64,000 nucleotides of DNA from Gammaproteobacteria bacterium (GCA_021648525.1 JAKISP010000008.1:13744-77743), one strand, 5' to 3'. Shown: positions 58,610 to 64,000, counted from the stretch's first letter. Notes: generated by a model from the letters alone, not told the origin. Translations and numbers: made by a program.

Positions 58610-61600
58610 TCAAGCCACATTCTGCCATGCAGCTGCAATCACAGGTTGAAGTCCTGTCTGTAAATCAGGTGAAAGCGTCAGTTCACCCAGTGCAGGTGGG
58701 TTAAATGCCGCCATCGCACTGACTAATTGATCGACCTGGGTATCAAGCAGGTAAGCACCATCAGCCACTTCAAAACGATCTACTTGATAAGCATCATCAC
58801 CATACCAATTTGAAACAACCAGTTGATCGGCGGTGCCAATCACACTCACATTCAGGTTATCGCCATTTCTGCTGAACCATAATTGCTCTGTCGATATATC
58901 CGCACCAAAAAGTGCCATATCTTCCGTTGCGCCATAAACAGCCGGTTGTGCATCCTGTGCGTTATAATCGTTGACTACATCACTGCCATCGCCCCTTCCA
59001 AAGATATAAACATCGCTGCCCGCTCCACCACTCAGGGTGTCGTTGCCAGACCCACCAACCAGTGTGTCGTTGCCGGTTGAGCCAGTCAGACTATCGTTAC
59101 CAGCCATGCCGTAGATCGCAGCGATATTCACCAGCGTCGTACCACTAAAGTCGAGCGTGTTGCTGTAGTTATTGTTCTGAATGATGTTGCTGCCAGCGCC
59201 GCCATCGATTACTTCGACGGTGTTGCTACCTGAGAAGGTGCTCAGTCCAATAGTGTCATCGCCTGCGCTACCTTGCAGGGTATCAATGCCATCACCACCG
59301 TTAACCCGGTCAAAACCATCGCCTTCAGTATAGAGAAACAGGTCATCACCTGCTTCACCATAAAGCTGGTCATCATCGCGGCCGCCGTAGATCTGGTCGT
59401 TGCCGCCACCGCCAAAAATAGCGTCATTACCGTCACCGCCGAAGAGGATGTCGTCACCCACTTCAGTCACGGCAACATCCTGGGTTTGATTGAGAGCCAG
59501 CACGCTCTCAGTATATGTCCAATAGGCATTGGCAGGAAAAAAACCAACGGCTTCATTCGCACCGTCCCATGTCGCAATCACCCCGCTTTCGGTATCACCA
59601 AAAAGTGTGTCATTGCCAGTCCCACCCACCAGGGTGTCGATCCCGGCACCGCCGTATAACCAGTCATTACCGGCACTGCCATACAGATAGTCCTGACCAT
59701 CTTCGCCAAAAAGCAGGTCGTTCCCGTCCATTCCCAGCAGGATGTCTTCTGCACCACCACCATCGAGGTAGTCGTGACCGAGGCCACCCACCAGCCAGTC
59801 AACCCGCGATGAGCCCACCAGGGTGTCATTGCCACCTTCACCATAGAGGTAGGCACCTTCTGCACCGGCAACCGCTGAATCTGTTTGAGAGGAAGCGGAG
59901 AGGGTGTCATTGCCTTCACCACCGTAGAGCTGAATGCCCGGGTTGTTGGCAATATCCAGCACATTAACAAAATCGTTTTGGTCACCGACATAAACAGCAT
60001 CAATATTGCTGGCGAGGGTGATCTGGTTCGGGGTGAGCGGGTCGGCTCCCGCCAGGTCTGCGTTAAAGTTTGAGGCTGTCATGCCATCGATCTGTAAAGC
60101 GTCTTCGTTACCAATAAAGGTGGTGATCGTGGTGGTTGCTACCGGTTCGGGGGTCTCGATCAGGTTAATCCCGAGGTCGCCGTTGTTAAAGTTTTCAACA
60201 GAGACAACACCATCCACGCCGATAATCTGCAGGAAGTTGCCGTTGAGGCGGTAGGTTAATGAGCCGTCGTCGTTCTGGTATTCATTGGCGGTGGCGGTCT
60301 CAAGGCCACCGATCAATACGTTGCCGTCATAGATGATCTGGCCGAGGCCATCTGTATCGCGAATCAGGTCTGAACCGTCACCGCTGTTGAAGATGTAGGT
60401 ATCCATGCCGGTGCCACCTTCGAGTACATCGGCAACATTGTCACCAGCACCGCCGATCAGAATGTCGTCACCCGCACCGCCATAGAGGCGGTCGGTACCG
60501 CCGCCGCCATTGAGAACGTCGTTGTCGTTACCGCCGTAGAGGTTGTCATCGTTGGCATCACCGCTGAGGATATCGTCACCGGTGCCACCCAGCAGGGTGT
60601 CATTGCCAGCGCCGCCTAGCAGGGTGTCTGTACCGGCGTTGCCTTCAATATAATCAGCACCTGCATTTCCCGAAATGATGTCGTTACCGGCACCGCCGTA
60701 GAGGTAATCGCCCTGATTGCCACCGTTGATTGTGTCTGGGTTTTCATCACCAAAGGTGTAGCGAACTGCACTTGGTAAAATTGTAGATCCGAAATCAAAG
60801 GTTCCTGCCTGTATATTTGAACCTTGATCGTCATAGTATTCAATCCTGCCATCTGTTGTTGGTACCAAATAATGGTCAATACTATTTCTGCTTATTAACT
60901 GGTTAAGTACGTAGGCCTTATCTAGCAAAAATTGCTCGGTAAAATTATCAGCGCCCCATTCACTGGATAAATAGAGACCTGCATTCCCGGTAATCGCGAA
61001 AGGGTTGAGGTTAACCAGTGCATAGCGGTAGGCATACCCTGCCGCTGAGTTATCCATCGCAGCATTGGCCAGGCTATTAACATCTACGATGCTGACAGCA
61101 CCGACGGAATTCGTAAACAGGCCGCTTGCCTCTATGGCTTGTATCTGTGTGTAGAGGGCATCACGGTCGTCGATTGCCACGTTTCCAGTCACACCAAAAA
61201 TACCACTGAGCATATCGATGGTGGTTTCCAGGCTATTGGCGTTAATATAGGTGCTGTTTTCTATAAAGCTGGTAATGGTGTTGATGCCGTTGGGGTCGGT
61301 GTTGAGATTGGAGTCCAATGTGGCGAAGAGGTTGTAGACGGCGAGGGAGTCGGTCATTGCGACTATATCATGAGAATCGAGCGGCCCTTGATTATTACTC
61401 TCTGAAAAAATAATACCGCTAATTCCAGGCACATCACCTATCAAATGAACAAGATCACTTTCTACATTCGTATTGACACCACTGGTATTCCAATCAGTAC
61501 CGATGCTACCAGTAAGTGGCACTGGAACGCTGTTAAATAAATCAAAGAACCCTGAGCTAGTTGGATCTGTTCCAAACACATCGAATCCGGGTGAATTGTA

Positions 61601-62895: not shown

Positions 62896-64000
62896 TTATG
62901 CCGTTCTCTCTTCTTTAACCATTGCCGGTCGCCCTTGTCTTGTATAATCAACAGGCCGGTTCAACATTGCTTCGAGCTGCTTCTGAAAATGATCATTCCC
63001 AGGTGGTGTTGAAAATATTGCCACCTTTGTAATCTTTTCAATTAGATCACCACCGCTCAGCTGGTCATGACCGTCCCATGTCGCAATCACCCTGCTTTCA
63101 GTATCGCCAAAAAGTGTGTCATTGCCACCTTCACCATAGAGGTAGGCACCTTCTGCACCGGCAACCGCTGAGTCTGTTTGAGAGGAAGCGGAGAGGGTGT
63201 CATTGCCTTCACCACCGTAGAGCTGAATACCCGGGTTGTTGGCAATATCCAGCACATTAACAAAATCGTTTTGGTCACCGGCATAGACAGCGTCAATATT
63301 GCTGGCGAGGGTGATCTGGTTCGGGGTGAGCGGATCGGCTCCCGCCAGGTCTGCGTTAAAGTTTGAGGCTGTCATGCCATCGATCTGTAAAGCGTCTTCG
63401 TTACCAATAAAGGTGGTGATCGTGGTCGTTGCTACCGGTTCGGGGGTCTCAATCAGGTTAATCCCGAGGTCGCCGTTGTTAAAGTTTTCAACAGAGACAA
63501 CACCATCCACGCCAATAATCTGCAGGAAGTTGCCGTTGAGGCGGTAGGTTAATGAGCCATCGTCGTTCTGGTATTCATTGGCGGTGGCGCTCTCAAGGCC
63601 ACCGATCAATACGTTGCCGTCATAAATGATCTGGCCGAGGCCATCTGTATCGCGAATCAGGTCTGAACCGTCACCGCTGTTGAAGATGTAGGTATCCATG
63701 CCGGTGCCACCTTCGAGTACATCGGCAACATTGTCGCCAGCACCTCCGATCAGAATATCGTCACCCGCACCGCCATAGAGGCGGTCGGTACCACCGCCGC
63801 CATTGAGGACGTCGTTGCCGTTACCGCCGTAGAGGTTGTCATCGTTGCCATCACCGCTGAGGATATCGTCGCCGGTGCCACCCAGCAGGGTGTCATTGCC
63901 AGCGCCGCCTGACAGGGTGTCTGCACCACCGTTGATGACATTGTCTGAGCGATCACCAAACGTGATGATGTGGTCATCGGAACCCACTCCATTAATGGTC
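62896..64000 (-). CDS. Second RTX-repeat protein; the 5' part runs off the window end. It shares a central block with 58610..62170 but has a unique, non-T1SS-like C-terminal ~60 aa. It may be a recombinant or decaying copy.
   Basis: RTX nonapeptides (GGAGNDTLLGGTGDDILSGDGNDDNLYGGNGNDVL) and an identical middle segment through YLYGEGGNDTLFGDTES. It then diverges (RVIATWDGHDQLSGGDLIEKITKVAIFS...KEERTA). Confidence 0.55.
   Translation of the reverse strand, partial: TINGVGSDDHIITFGDRSDNVINGGADTLSGGAGNDTLLGGTGDDILSGDGNDDNLYGGNGNDVLNGGGGTDRLYGGAGDDILIGGAGDNVADVLEGGTGMDTYIFNSGDGSDLIRDTDGLGQIIYDGNVLIGGLESATANEYQNDDGSLTYRLNGNFLQIIGVDGVVSVENFNNGDLGINLIETPEPVATTTITTFIGNEDALQIDGMTASNFNADLAGADPLTPNQITLASNIDAVYAGDQNDFVNVLDIANNPGIQLYGGEGNDTLSASSQTDSAVAGAEGAYLYGEGGNDTLFGDTESRVIATWDGHDQLSGGDLIEKITKVAIFSTPPGNDHFQKQLEAMLNRPVDYTRQGRPAMVKEERTA
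63078..63935. repeat. Copy B of the near-identical direct repeat shared by the two RTX genes
   Basis: See copy A. Sequence identity is visible by eye across >800 nt with only scattered substitutions. Confidence 0.8.

What the first reader, a model, noticed from the sequence alone, without database searches (positions are those of the whole stretch)
59569..63935. Near-identical ~0.86 kb block shared between two adjacent RTX genes, with a 216-nt indel at an RTX nonapeptide boundary
Segments 59569..60642 and 63078..63935 are almost base-for-base identical. Incidental ORFs are duplicated at a constant 3293-nt offset, one pair being 100% identical over 249 nt. The first copy has an extra 216 nt (72 aa, VGSSRVDWLVGG...GTGNDTL) inserted between two GNDTL repeats. 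Sequence outside the block differs completely, both the N-terminal side and the C-terminal ~60 aa of the second gene. This indicates recent gene conversion or unequal crossing-over between RTX repeats. It creates a direct repeat able to delete or amplify the intervening 3.3 kb, including the AT-rich membrane ORF. The second gene's C-terminus (MVKEERTA) does not look like a T1SS secretion signal, so it may be a non-secreted or decaying recombinant copy.
Basis: seen in the sequence. Interest (0 to 1): 0.5.

Follow-up and report, generated by a model that had tools for sequence, protein, structure and literature searches.

The report
Recombined RTX genes, one transposase-truncated
Two neighbouring genes for secreted calcium-binding (RTX) lipase-like proteins really do share a 0.86-kb stretch that is 97% identical, and the upstream copy is a truncated relic ending in a leftover piece of a transposase gene, which is an ordinary product of recombination within a tandem family of toxin-like genes.

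Summary
On the minus strand, 59820-60641 matches 63113-63934 (822 nt, 96.8%, no gaps). 59561-59618 matches 63070-63127 (58 nt, 94.8%). The 216 nt between them occur only in the first copy and are bounded by an identical 12-mer.

The block encodes one complete RTX repeat run, its linker domain and the start of a second run. It lies in gene 1 (58610-62170, 1186 aa, phospholipase-like N-terminal domain) and in gene 2 (62896->64000, cut by the window).

New result: the last 46-49 residues of gene 2, and its stop codon, come from the 3' end of an IS200-like/REP-associated Y1 transposase gene. Gene 2 is therefore a 3'-truncated RTX gene that lost its C-terminal secretion end. The same RTX-to-transposase junction occurs in two independent public contigs.

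The "AT-rich membrane ORF" is a conserved partner that sits directly upstream of such phospholipase-like genes. A third truncated paralogue on the same contig shares a different near-identical tract with gene 1. The locus is therefore a tandem mosaic array shaped by recombination.

Block dN/dS is 0.13, which argues against free decay. This is an ordinary kind of event. A silent-cassette function is possible but unproven.

The parts
58610..62170 (-). Gene 1 (L3J89_03885, 1186 aa). Phospholipase-like alpha/beta-hydrolase N-terminal domain (GHSLGG at aa 165-170), four RTX repeat runs with linkers, an HCBP_related domain (aa 1105-1139) and a complete C-terminus.
   Evidence: ORF list. Pfam HemolysinCabind 1.9e-60 in 10 stretches and HCBP_related 6e-08. 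Weak alpha/beta-hydrolase nucleophile-elbow hits. Homologues carry PF26363 'Phospholipase-like'. Exact match to MCF6323456.1.
62181..62816 (-). Small membrane protein gene (L3J89_03890, 211 aa). It has two N-terminal transmembrane helices and an alpha/beta domain with two invariant Cys. It ends 10 nt before the gene 1 start, and an AGAGG ribosome-binding site lies in that gap.
   Evidence: Sequence. Homologues lie directly upstream of phospholipase-like genes in L003, L004 (twice) and L007 (twice). 77 homologues, none named. AlphaFold model pLDDT 87.
62896..64000 (-). Gene 2 (inferred L3J89_03895), the 3' part only (last 367 codons plus stop). It is an RTX gene whose 5' part lies beyond the window.
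   Evidence: Open frame to the window edge. Pfam HemolysinCabind 2.2e-18. The locus-tag and accession order implies it is annotated as a protein.
59820..60641 (-). Shared block, copy in gene 1 (aa 510-783). It holds RTX run I, the linker domain and the first repeats of RTX run II.
   Evidence: blastn: 822 nt, 96.84% identical to 63113-63934. Motif map.
63113..63934 (-). Shared block, copy in gene 2 (aa 22-295).
59607..59822 (-). 216 nt (72 codons, eight nonapeptides) present only in gene 1. Its placement is ambiguous by 12 nt because the identical 12-mer GTGTCATTGCCA flanks it (59607-59618 and 59823-59834).
59561..59618 (-). Short distal part of the shared tract in gene 1 (GNDTLFGDTESGVIATWDG).
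   Evidence: 58 nt, 94.8% identical to 63070-63127.
63070..63127 (-). Short distal part of the shared tract in gene 2.
59348..59560 (-). Gene 1 segment absent from gene 2 but present, next to the transposase tail, in the related contigs L008/L009. It marks a second in-frame deletion in gene 2 of about 186-213 nt, depending on which nonapeptide is aligned.
   Evidence: Three-way alignment. blastn of L008 491-647 against 59511-59337. Position of GATGACCAGCT.
62896..63042 (-). Transposase-derived tail of gene 2. These are the last 46-49 codons plus the stop codon of an IS200-like/REP-associated Y1 transposase gene, fused in frame to an RTX nonapeptide (…DQLSGGD|LIEKITK…).
   Evidence: phmmer against 1.84 billion proteins: P0241 1.4e-16, P0242 1.1e-07. 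P0242 vs the full-length Y1_Tnp of L004: 2e-22. That protein hits PF01797 at 2e-13 and NF047646 at 2e-20. tblastn of P0242 aa 100-145 against 63042-62905: 58.7%, 1.9e-14. Alignment.

Best explanation
The window ends inside a tandem array of paralogous modules. Each module is a small two-helix membrane protein gene followed by a phospholipase-like RTX gene. The array sits on the chromosome of an uncultured gammaproteobacterium (MAG L3J89). The paralogues exchange sequence by homologous recombination (gene conversion or unequal crossover), so gene 1 is a mosaic. Its aa ~270-510 are near-identical to a third paralogue (L3J89_03905). Its aa 510-870 are 97% identical at DNA level to gene 2.

The 0.86-kb block is one such exchanged or retained tract. 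It covers a whole RTX beta-roll run plus its linker domain.

Gene 2 is a 3'-truncated copy. A Y1 (RAYT/IS200-like) transposase gene once lay at or inside its 3' end. A deletion then removed the rest of the RTX gene and nearly all of the transposase, leaving the last ~46 codons and the stop codon of the transposase fused in frame. Two further in-frame deletions between nonapeptide repeats (216 nt and ~0.2 kb) shortened gene 2.

Gene 2 therefore lacks the C-terminal RTX runs, the HCBP-related domain and the C-terminal secretion signal that gene 1 keeps. It is most likely not exported by a type I system.

Shown here: the repeat, the indels, the transposase origin of the tail, the conserved partner ORF and the third paralogue. 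Inferred: the order of events, gene conversion as the homogenising process, and non-secretion.
For: - Repeat and indel.
- Same codon phase in both copies.
- Transposase origin of the tail.
- The same RTX-to-transposase junction is present at 84% nt identity in two independent assemblies (L008/L009). There it is preceded by sequence homologous to the gene 1 segment just downstream of the block. The ancestral tract was therefore longer, and the truncation is not an assembly artefact.
- An intact version of the arrangement exists in metagenome locus L004: small ORF, phospholipase-like RTX gene, full-length Y1_Tnp, small ORF, phospholipase-like RTX gene of at least 1984 aa. The upstream RTX gene is itself truncated there.
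- Tandem small-ORF/phospholipase-like modules also occur in L007 and L002. L002 and L003 have type I ABC/MFP genes alongside.
- The third paralogue P0128 lies on the same 82.6-kb contig. Its N-terminus is ~25% identical to gene 1, while the stretch matching gene 1 aa 270-510 is ~85-95% identical.
- Block dS of 0.10 is lower than the divergence of the shared junction between genomes (0.16). This suggests homogenisation after the truncation arose.
Against: - The 5' part of gene 2 and the gene between it and P0128 could not be read, so the module structure of gene 2 is inferred.
- dN/dS of 0.13 with no stop codon in 367 codons fits a gene still under selection better than a dead relic. NCBI's annotation apparently calls gene 2 a protein, not a pseudogene (inferred from consecutive accessions).
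- The dS comparison that favours gene conversion over a single duplication has overlapping confidence ranges (19.5 vs 30 substitutions).
- Type I secretion signals have no strict consensus, so non-secretion is an inference from the foreign origin of the tail.
- None of the ten other large ORFs scanned in the window is a type I secretion component.
- The source is a metagenome-assembled genome, so the adjacency of the two copies rests on one contig.
Confidence: 0.7

Rival explanations
1. Silent-cassette system. The 3'-truncated upstream genes (gene 2, P0128), each with its own small membrane partner, are stored N-terminal effector modules. Type I substrates carry their secretion signal at the C-terminus. 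Recombination within the shared RTX block would therefore graft a stored N-terminal effector onto the single complete RTX/secretion scaffold of gene 1. This would be the mirror image of the 5'-truncated tpsC, mafB-CT, CDI and Rhs orphan cassettes.
For: - Only the last gene of the array has a complete C-terminus.
- The variable catalytic N-terminus (~25% identity) sits next to near-identical tracts.
- The partner ORFs vary along with their effector gene.
- The block is in the same codon phase in both genes, so a deletion gives an in-frame hybrid.
- dN/dS of 0.13 rejects free decay of gene 2.
- Arrays of RTX-less phospholipase-like genes with partner ORFs recur in L002 and L007.
- The logic is established for tpsC and mafB-CT cassettes (PMC5472700).
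Against: - No recombinant isoform has been seen.
- Gene 2's end is a transposase scar plus repeat-mediated deletions, which looks accidental, not designed.
- The switch would be a one-way deletion that also removes gene 1's effector domain and its partner ORF.
- Immunity function of the small ORF and antibacterial activity are untested. Its model has no solved fold relative.
- A literature search found no description of such a type I system, so there is no precedent to lean on.
Confidence: 0.15
2. A single fairly recent segmental duplication, without later gene conversion, copied about 1.3 kb of gene 1 into a neighbouring position. Gene 2 has simply been diverging and losing pieces since.
For: - Divergence is uniform at ~3% across the block, with a cluster of five mismatches in the first 24 nt.
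- Two deletions and a truncation affect gene 2 only.
- The dS comparison with the inter-genome junction is statistically weak.
Against: - The RTX-to-transposase junction is shared with a genome that is ~15% diverged. The truncated copy is therefore older than the 3% block divergence suggests.
- The ratio of replacement to silent changes rejects neutral evolution of one copy since the split (P about 2e-4).
- The separate near-identical tract between gene 1 and P0128 shows that exchange between paralogues is recurrent.
Confidence: 0.12
3. Assembly artefact. The metagenome assembler joined strain variants or collapsed repeats, creating a spurious second copy or a spurious adjacency.
For: - The source is a MAG contig.
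- RTX repeats are a known assembly hazard.
- One related metagenome contig (L003) does look chimeric.
Against: - The copies differ at 26+3 sites, with a transition bias and mostly silent changes.
- The longest perfect run is 110 nt, shorter than typical final k-mers.
- Each copy has unique flanks in frame.
- The key junction is reproduced in two other assemblies.
Confidence: 0.03

Closest known systems
Neisseria meningitidis frpA/frpC RTX genes with the upstream frpD gene
   Same: These are paralogous type I RTX proteins that differ mainly in the number of nonapeptide repeats and show sequence variability. A small envelope protein gene sits in the same operon directly upstream of the RTX gene (PMC5472700).
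   Different: FrpC has a self-processing module with Asp-Pro cleavage, and FrpD is a lipoprotein. Pfam finds no SPM in gene 1 or gene 2. The partner here is a two-helix inner-membrane-type protein with no detectable similarity to solved structures. A neighbouring RTX protein in L007 does carry an SPM.
MARTX toxin (rtxA1) variants of Vibrio vulnificus generated by gene exchange
   Same: Recombination within conserved repeat-containing regions of RTX genes produces mosaic toxins with different effector content (PMC5555677).
   Different: MARTX effector domains are central and are exchanged between strains or replicons. Here the exchange is between tandem chromosomal paralogues with N-terminal catalytic domains, and one partner is truncated.
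Orphan toxin cassettes of polymorphic toxin loci (tpsC, mafB-CT; CDI/Rhs orphans)
   Same: Truncated paralogues lie next to a full-length gene. Each has its own small partner gene and shares a homology tract with the full-length gene that could mediate replacement (PMC5472700).
   Different: Known cassettes are 5'-truncated, lie downstream and carry C-terminal toxins. Here the truncated copies are 3'-truncated and upstream, and the variable domain is N-terminal. Toxicity and immunity are untested, and the truncation of gene 2 is visibly a transposase scar.
Family I.3 lipases secreted by type I systems (e.g. Pseudomonas sp. MIS38 lipase, PDB 2z8x)
   Same: An N-terminal serine hydrolase domain is followed by C-terminal RTX repeats. 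The RTX part of the block matches the RTX part of 2z8x (4.3e-10).
   Different: The catalytic domain has no sequence match to any solved structure. Gene 1 is twice as long, with four RTX runs, and has a conserved membrane partner gene.
REP-associated tyrosine transposases (RAYT) / IS200-IS605 Y1 transposases
   Same: Gene 2's tail aligns with the C-terminal extension of such proteins and ends at the same stop. RAYTs are typically single-copy domesticated genes (PMC5581495, PMC2817692).
   Different: Only the last ~46 residues remain. The HUH/Tyr catalytic core is absent from the whole window, so this is a relic and not a transposase.

Membership tests
RTX (repeats-in-toxin) type I secretion substrates | Tandem glycine/aspartate-rich nonapeptides (GGxGxDxUx) | tested here: met
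   Pfam PF00353: gene 1 at 1.9e-60 (10 stretches), gene 2 at 2.2e-18. Motif map. The block matches the CyaA RTX domain at 8.3e-38.
RTX (repeats-in-toxin) type I secretion substrates | Uncleaved secretion signal in the last ~50-60 residues | tested here: not met
   This applies to gene 2. Its last 46-49 residues are homologous to the C-terminus of Y1 transposases. For gene 1 the feature cannot be tested by sequence. Gene 1 has an HCBP_related domain and a complete C-terminus.
RTX (repeats-in-toxin) type I secretion substrates | Cognate ABC transporter / membrane fusion protein genes | tested here: inconclusive
   None among the ten other large ORFs of the window scanned. Present next to homologous modules in L002 (ABC with C39 domain, plus HlyD-type MFP) and in L003 (ABC fragment). 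The contig beyond 64000 could not be read.
IS200/IS605-type Y1 transposase / RAYT | Y1_Tnp catalytic core (HUH motif and catalytic tyrosine, PF01797) | tested here: not met
   Only residues matching P0242 aa 100-145 are present. No other part of a Y1 transposase is found in the window. Pfam and NCBIfam give no hit for the tail alone.
Polymorphic toxin locus with orphan cassettes | Variable toxin domain joined to a conserved scaffold shared among paralogues | tested here: met
   P0128 vs gene 1: ~25% identity over aa 1-270, then ~85-95% over aa 270-510. Gene 2 vs gene 1: 97% nt identity over the block.
Polymorphic toxin locus with orphan cassettes | Cognate immunity gene next to each toxin domain | not testable with these tools
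   The adjacency of a small membrane ORF to each phospholipase-like gene is shown. Protective function is not testable. Foldseek finds no solved relative.
Polymorphic toxin locus with orphan cassettes | Truncated cassettes that become expressed or secreted after recombination with the full-length gene | not testable with these tools
   An in-frame hybrid is possible, but no recombinant sequence was found in any collection.
FrpC-type self-processing ('clip-and-link') RTX proteins | Self-processing module with Asp-Pro cleavage site (PF26745) | tested here: not met
   No SPM hit in gene 1 or gene 2 at E<=0.01. The L007 neighbour has one and shares only the pre-SPM linker domain with the block (38% identity, 4e-15).
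Family I.3 type I-secreted lipases | Homologous catalytic lipase domain | tested here: not met
   phmmer of gene 1 aa 1-470 against all PDB sequences gives no hit at E<=1. There are only sub-threshold nucleophile-elbow hits to alpha/beta-hydrolase Pfam families.

The most novel reading that the evidence does not exclude
The array is a mirror-image polymorphic-toxin locus for type I secretion. Upstream 3'-truncated genes (gene 2, L3J89_03905) would be stored N-terminal phospholipase-like effector cassettes, each with a cognate membrane immunity gene. Homologous recombination in the shared RTX block would move a stored effector onto the only copy that carries the C-terminal RTX/secretion scaffold, switching the secreted effector.
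Probability: 0.15. Interest if true: 0.7.

Novelty: new member of a known kind. Interest (0 to 1): 0.33.

Why it matters
As it stands, this is a clean worked example of how RTX gene families evolve. Nonapeptide repeats act as in-register microhomology for in-frame deletions. Tandem paralogues exchange kilobase tracts. A transposase gene can cap a truncated gene with a foreign C-terminus that an annotator would still call a protein.

It matters for annotation. Gene 2 should not be assumed to be a secreted RTX protein, and the small membrane ORF should not be dismissed as noise.

It would matter more if the truncated upstream genes turn out to be a reservoir of N-terminal effectors for a type I-secreted antibacterial or host-directed phospholipase. 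That would extend the orphan-cassette principle to a secretion system whose signal is at the other end of the protein.

Tried and rejected
1. Reading beyond 64000. This failed by every route:
- Exact-protein look-ups of window genes and of P0128/P0249 found nothing in the contig index.
- A genome-contig scan with the block linker found only a 32%-identical relative, L001.
- Two metagenome-contig scans found nothing.

2. Homology search with the 367 visible residues of gene 2. It was swamped by generic RTX proteins, with a best identity of 32%.

3. Recalled resemblance of '…VKEERTA' to the E. coli HlyA secretion signal. I tested it by phmmer against PDB and tblastn against 72,556 plasmids at E<=10. 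There was no HlyA hit, so I rejected it.

4. The tail as a relic of something in the fetched loci. Six-frame comparison found nothing. The exhaustive phmmer run then resolved it.

5. Searches with no result:
- No Rfam family in the window.
- No PADLOC defence family.
- Promoter- and terminator-like sites are not above shuffled expectation.

6. Fold of the small ORF. The model is good, but no solved-structure match has E<=0.001.

7. They are explained by coincident third codon positions and are not genes.

8. The 216-nt segment as a recent tandem duplication in gene 1. Rejected because its nonapeptides are no more than ~78% alike to neighbouring ones. A deletion in gene 2 is more likely but is not polarised by an outgroup.
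Full report
OBSERVATION

The repeat is real. All features lie on the minus strand. Gene 1 is the 1186-codon ORF 58610-62170. Gene 2 is open from the window edge (64000) down to its stop at 62896-62898.

- blastn of the region against the whole window finds only two extra alignments. 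The first is 59820-60641 vs 63113-63934: 822 nt, 96.84%, 26 mismatches, no gaps, offset 3293. The second is 59561-59618 vs 63070-63127: 58 nt, 94.8%, offset 3509.
- A gapped local alignment gives the same picture with a single 216-nt gap.
- The gap is bounded in gene 1 by the identical 12-mer GTGTCATTGCCA at 59607-59618 and 59823-59834, exactly 216 nt apart. Gene 2 has one copy, at 63116-63127. The difference is therefore an in-register loss or gain of eight nonapeptides at a GNDTL motif.
- Outside the tract, identity drops to chance.
- Twenty of the 26 differences are transitions.
- The longest perfect runs are 110, 92 and 62 nt.
It is identical only in its incidental antisense translation, because its third codon positions coincide with those of the RTX frame.

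WHAT THE BLOCK ENCODES

In gene 1 the tract is aa 510-783 plus 856-870. In gene 2 it is aa 22-310. It holds three parts:
- RTX run I, about nine nonapeptides.
- A ~170-residue non-repeat linker domain.
- The first repeats of RTX run II.

The RTX part matches the RTX domains of CyaA, HlyA, serralysins and family I.3 lipases. The linker resembles the pre-SPM region of an RTX protein in locus L007 (38% identity, 4e-15).

Over 288 aligned codons there are 19.5 silent and 8.5 replacement differences. This gives dS 0.099, dN 0.013 and dN/dS 0.13. That ratio rejects neutrality of both copies (P about 2e-7). It also rejects a model in which one copy has evolved freely since the split (P about 2e-4).

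THE TWO GENES

Gene 1 has the following features:
- An N-terminal ~470-residue domain with a GHSLGG nucleophile elbow.
- Only sub-threshold alpha/beta-hydrolase Pfam hits and no solved relative by sequence.
- 209 homologues in the protein collection, many carrying the precomputed family PF26363 'Phospholipase-like'.
- Four RTX runs, an HCBP_related domain (aa 1105-1139) and a complete C-terminus after the N-terminal domain.

THE TAIL OF GENE 2

Gene 2 follows the block with '…ATWDG HDQLSGGD LIEKITKVAIFSTPPGNDHFQKQLEAMLNRPVDYTRQGRPAMVKEERTA*'. An exhaustive phmmer search of this 57-residue tail against 1.84 billion proteins gave eight hits.

- P0242, P0244 and P0245 (57%, 52% and 55% identity) are short proteins whose C-termini align with the tail.
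- P0242 aligns in two segments with a full-length Y1 transposase of locus L004 (2e-22 and 4e-10).
- That L004 protein hits PF01797 (Y1_Tnp, 2e-13) and NCBIfam REP-associated tyrosine transposase (2e-20; 73 bits, just under the 80-bit cut-off).
- The multiple alignment places the tail on the last ~50 residues of these transposases, ending at the same stop.
- tblastn of P0242 against the window matches only 63042-62905 (58.7%, 1.9e-14). No catalytic-core remnant exists anywhere in the window.

Gene 2's C-terminus is therefore the 3' end of a transposase gene fused in frame to an RTX nonapeptide. This explains why it 'does not look like' a secretion signal.

INDEPENDENT CONFIRMATION AND HISTORY

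The best hit, P0241 (76% identity), comes from two sub-kilobase contigs of other assemblies, L008 and L009.

- L008 matches window 63072-62861 at 84.4%. This covers the junction, the tail, the stop and 35 nt beyond it.
- Immediately upstream, L008 matches gene 1 at 59511-59337, the segment just downstream of the block. That segment is missing from gene 2.
- L008 also carries the end of a small-membrane-ORF homologue and the first 17 codons of a phospholipase-like gene, fused by a large internal deletion to that segment.

Three conclusions follow:
- (a) The RTX-to-transposase junction is older than the split between these genomes and is not an assembly artefact.
- (b) The ancestral truncated gene shared at least 1.3 kb with gene 1.
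- (c) Gene 2 later lost about 0.19-0.21 kb in frame after 'ATWDG'. It also differs from gene 1 by the 216-nt indel, whose direction is not polarised.

Divergence at the shared junction between genomes (0.143 raw, 0.158 corrected) exceeds the block's dS of 0.099. This suggests the block was homogenised with gene 1 after the truncation arose. With 30 and 19.5 substitutions this is suggestive only.

THE NEIGHBOURHOOD IS A MODULE ARRAY

The 'AT-rich membrane ORF' (62181-62816, 211 aa) ends 10 nt before the gene 1 start, and an AGAGG ribosome-binding site lies in that gap. Homologues, at 22-54% identity, lie directly upstream of phospholipase-like genes:
- in L003;
- twice in L004;
- twice in L007.

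In L002 a homologue sits between two such genes, behind a type I ABC transporter and membrane fusion protein.

Other facts about this ORF:
- It has 77 homologues, all unnamed.
- Its AlphaFold model (pLDDT 87) shows two long N-terminal helices and an alpha/beta domain with two invariant cysteines.
- Foldseek finds no solved relative.

Locus L004 shows what is probably the undamaged layout:
- small ORF;
- phospholipase-like RTX gene;
- full-length Y1 transposase;
- small ORF;
- phospholipase-like RTX gene of at least 1984 aa.

The RTX gene upstream of the transposase is itself cut short there.

SOURCE AND A THIRD PARALOGUE

The small ORF is 100% identical to L3J89_03890 of a 'Gammaproteobacteria bacterium' MAG, on a contig of 82,602 nt. 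Gene 1 is L3J89_03885 (MCF6323456.1).

On the same contig, L3J89_03905 (P0128, 557 aa) is another phospholipase-like RTX protein:
- Its first ~250 residues are only ~25% identical to gene 1.
- Its next ~240 residues are ~85-95% identical to gene 1 aa 270-510.
- It then ends prematurely.

The high-identity tract with P0128 stops within a few residues of where the high-identity tract with gene 2 begins (aa ~510). Consecutive protein accessions imply that the two genes in between (03895, which is inferred to be gene 2, and 03900) are annotated as proteins. Gene 1 is thus a mosaic, and it is the only copy with a complete C-terminal end.

MECHANISM

Best explanation (confidence 0.7): this is a tandem paralogue array that exchanges tracts by homologous recombination. 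Gene 2 is a 3'-truncated copy, created when a deletion fused it to the end of a neighbouring or inserted Y1 transposase gene. It was then trimmed by repeat-mediated in-frame deletions. Because it lacks everything downstream of gene 1 position ~59340, it should not be a type I substrate. The missing part includes the later RTX runs, the HCBP_related domain and the C-terminal signal region.

The direct repeat could in principle delete or amplify the 3.3-kb unit between the copies. The copies are in the same codon phase, so a deletion would give an in-frame gene 2-gene 1 hybrid with a complete secretion end. This is inference. No such product was found.

Rivals:
- Silent-cassette system (0.15). 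The truncated upstream genes are stored N-terminal effector cassettes, the mirror image of tpsC, mafB-CT, CDI and Rhs orphans (PMC5472700). For it: the low dN/dS, the variable N-terminus joined to conserved tracts, and a partner ORF per module. Against it: the scar-like truncation, the one-way nature of the switch, and the lack of any functional data or precedent.
- A single duplication without later conversion (0.12).
- Misassembly (0.03).

COMPARISON WITH KNOWN SYSTEMS

The event type is known:
- RTX paralogues differing in repeat number, with an upstream small envelope partner (frpA/frpC/frpD, PMC5472700).
- Mosaic RTX toxins produced by recombination (MARTX, PMC5555677).
- RAYT/IS200 Y1 transposases (PMC2817692, PMC5581495).

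Gene 1 behaves like a type I-secreted RTX hydrolase, but it is not a family I.3 lipase and not an FrpC-type self-processing protein.

VERDICT

I rate the finding as a new member of a known kind, with modest interest of about 0.33. The uncharacterised module of a small membrane protein plus a phospholipase-like effector, and the possibility of 3'-truncated cassettes, are the parts worth a follow-up.

Noticed in passing
window 50833-53626 (minus strand): A second paralogue array. A 334-aa ORF (52622-53626) plus a 132-aa membrane ORF is followed by a 5'-truncated 119-aa paralogue plus a 134-aa membrane ORF, and then by a 168-aa paralogue. The C-terminal Gly/Ala-rich hydrophobic domain is repeated three times at 82-90% nt identity (50964-51125, 52021-52182, 52843-53004). 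It looks like a full-length toxin/immunity pair followed by orphan cassettes. No Pfam or NCBIfam hits.
   Followed up: partly
window 62181-62816; loci L002-L007: The small membrane ORF belongs to an unnamed family of 77 detected homologues that sits directly upstream of phospholipase-like (PF26363) genes. The AlphaFold model has pLDDT 87, with two transmembrane helices and an alpha/beta domain with two invariant Cys. No solved fold relative was found. It is a candidate immunity or accessory protein.
   Followed up: partly
beyond window end (same contig, L3J89_03905 = P0128): A third phospholipase-like RTX paralogue. It has a divergent catalytic N-terminus, a ~240-residue tract that is ~85-95% identical to gene 1 aa 270-510, and a premature C-terminus.
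   Followed up: partly
L004 10001-12709: In a related metagenome locus, the phospholipase-like RTX gene (640 aa) that lies directly upstream of a full-length Y1 transposase is also cut short. It ends in an odd directly repeated peptide (ESKGSVSIDF twice). RTX truncation next to Y1 transposase genes therefore seems recurrent.
   Followed up: partly
L003 1-460 and 3510-3700: This metagenome contig carries the same ABC-transporter 3' fragment at its start and spliced into the RTX repeats of its phospholipase-like gene. It is probably an assembly chimera or a circular-permutation artefact.
   Followed up: no
L007 130-1728: An RTX protein with a self-processing module (PF26745, DPLALDLDG motif) lies directly upstream of two tandem small-ORF/phospholipase-like modules. 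It shares the block's linker domain (38% identity).
   Followed up: no
window 60006-60254 and 63299-63547 (plus strand): Antisense 82-codon ORFs inside both block copies translate identically despite four nucleotide differences. The reason is that their third codon positions coincide with those of the RTX frame. They are incidental and not evidence of a gene.
   Followed up: yes
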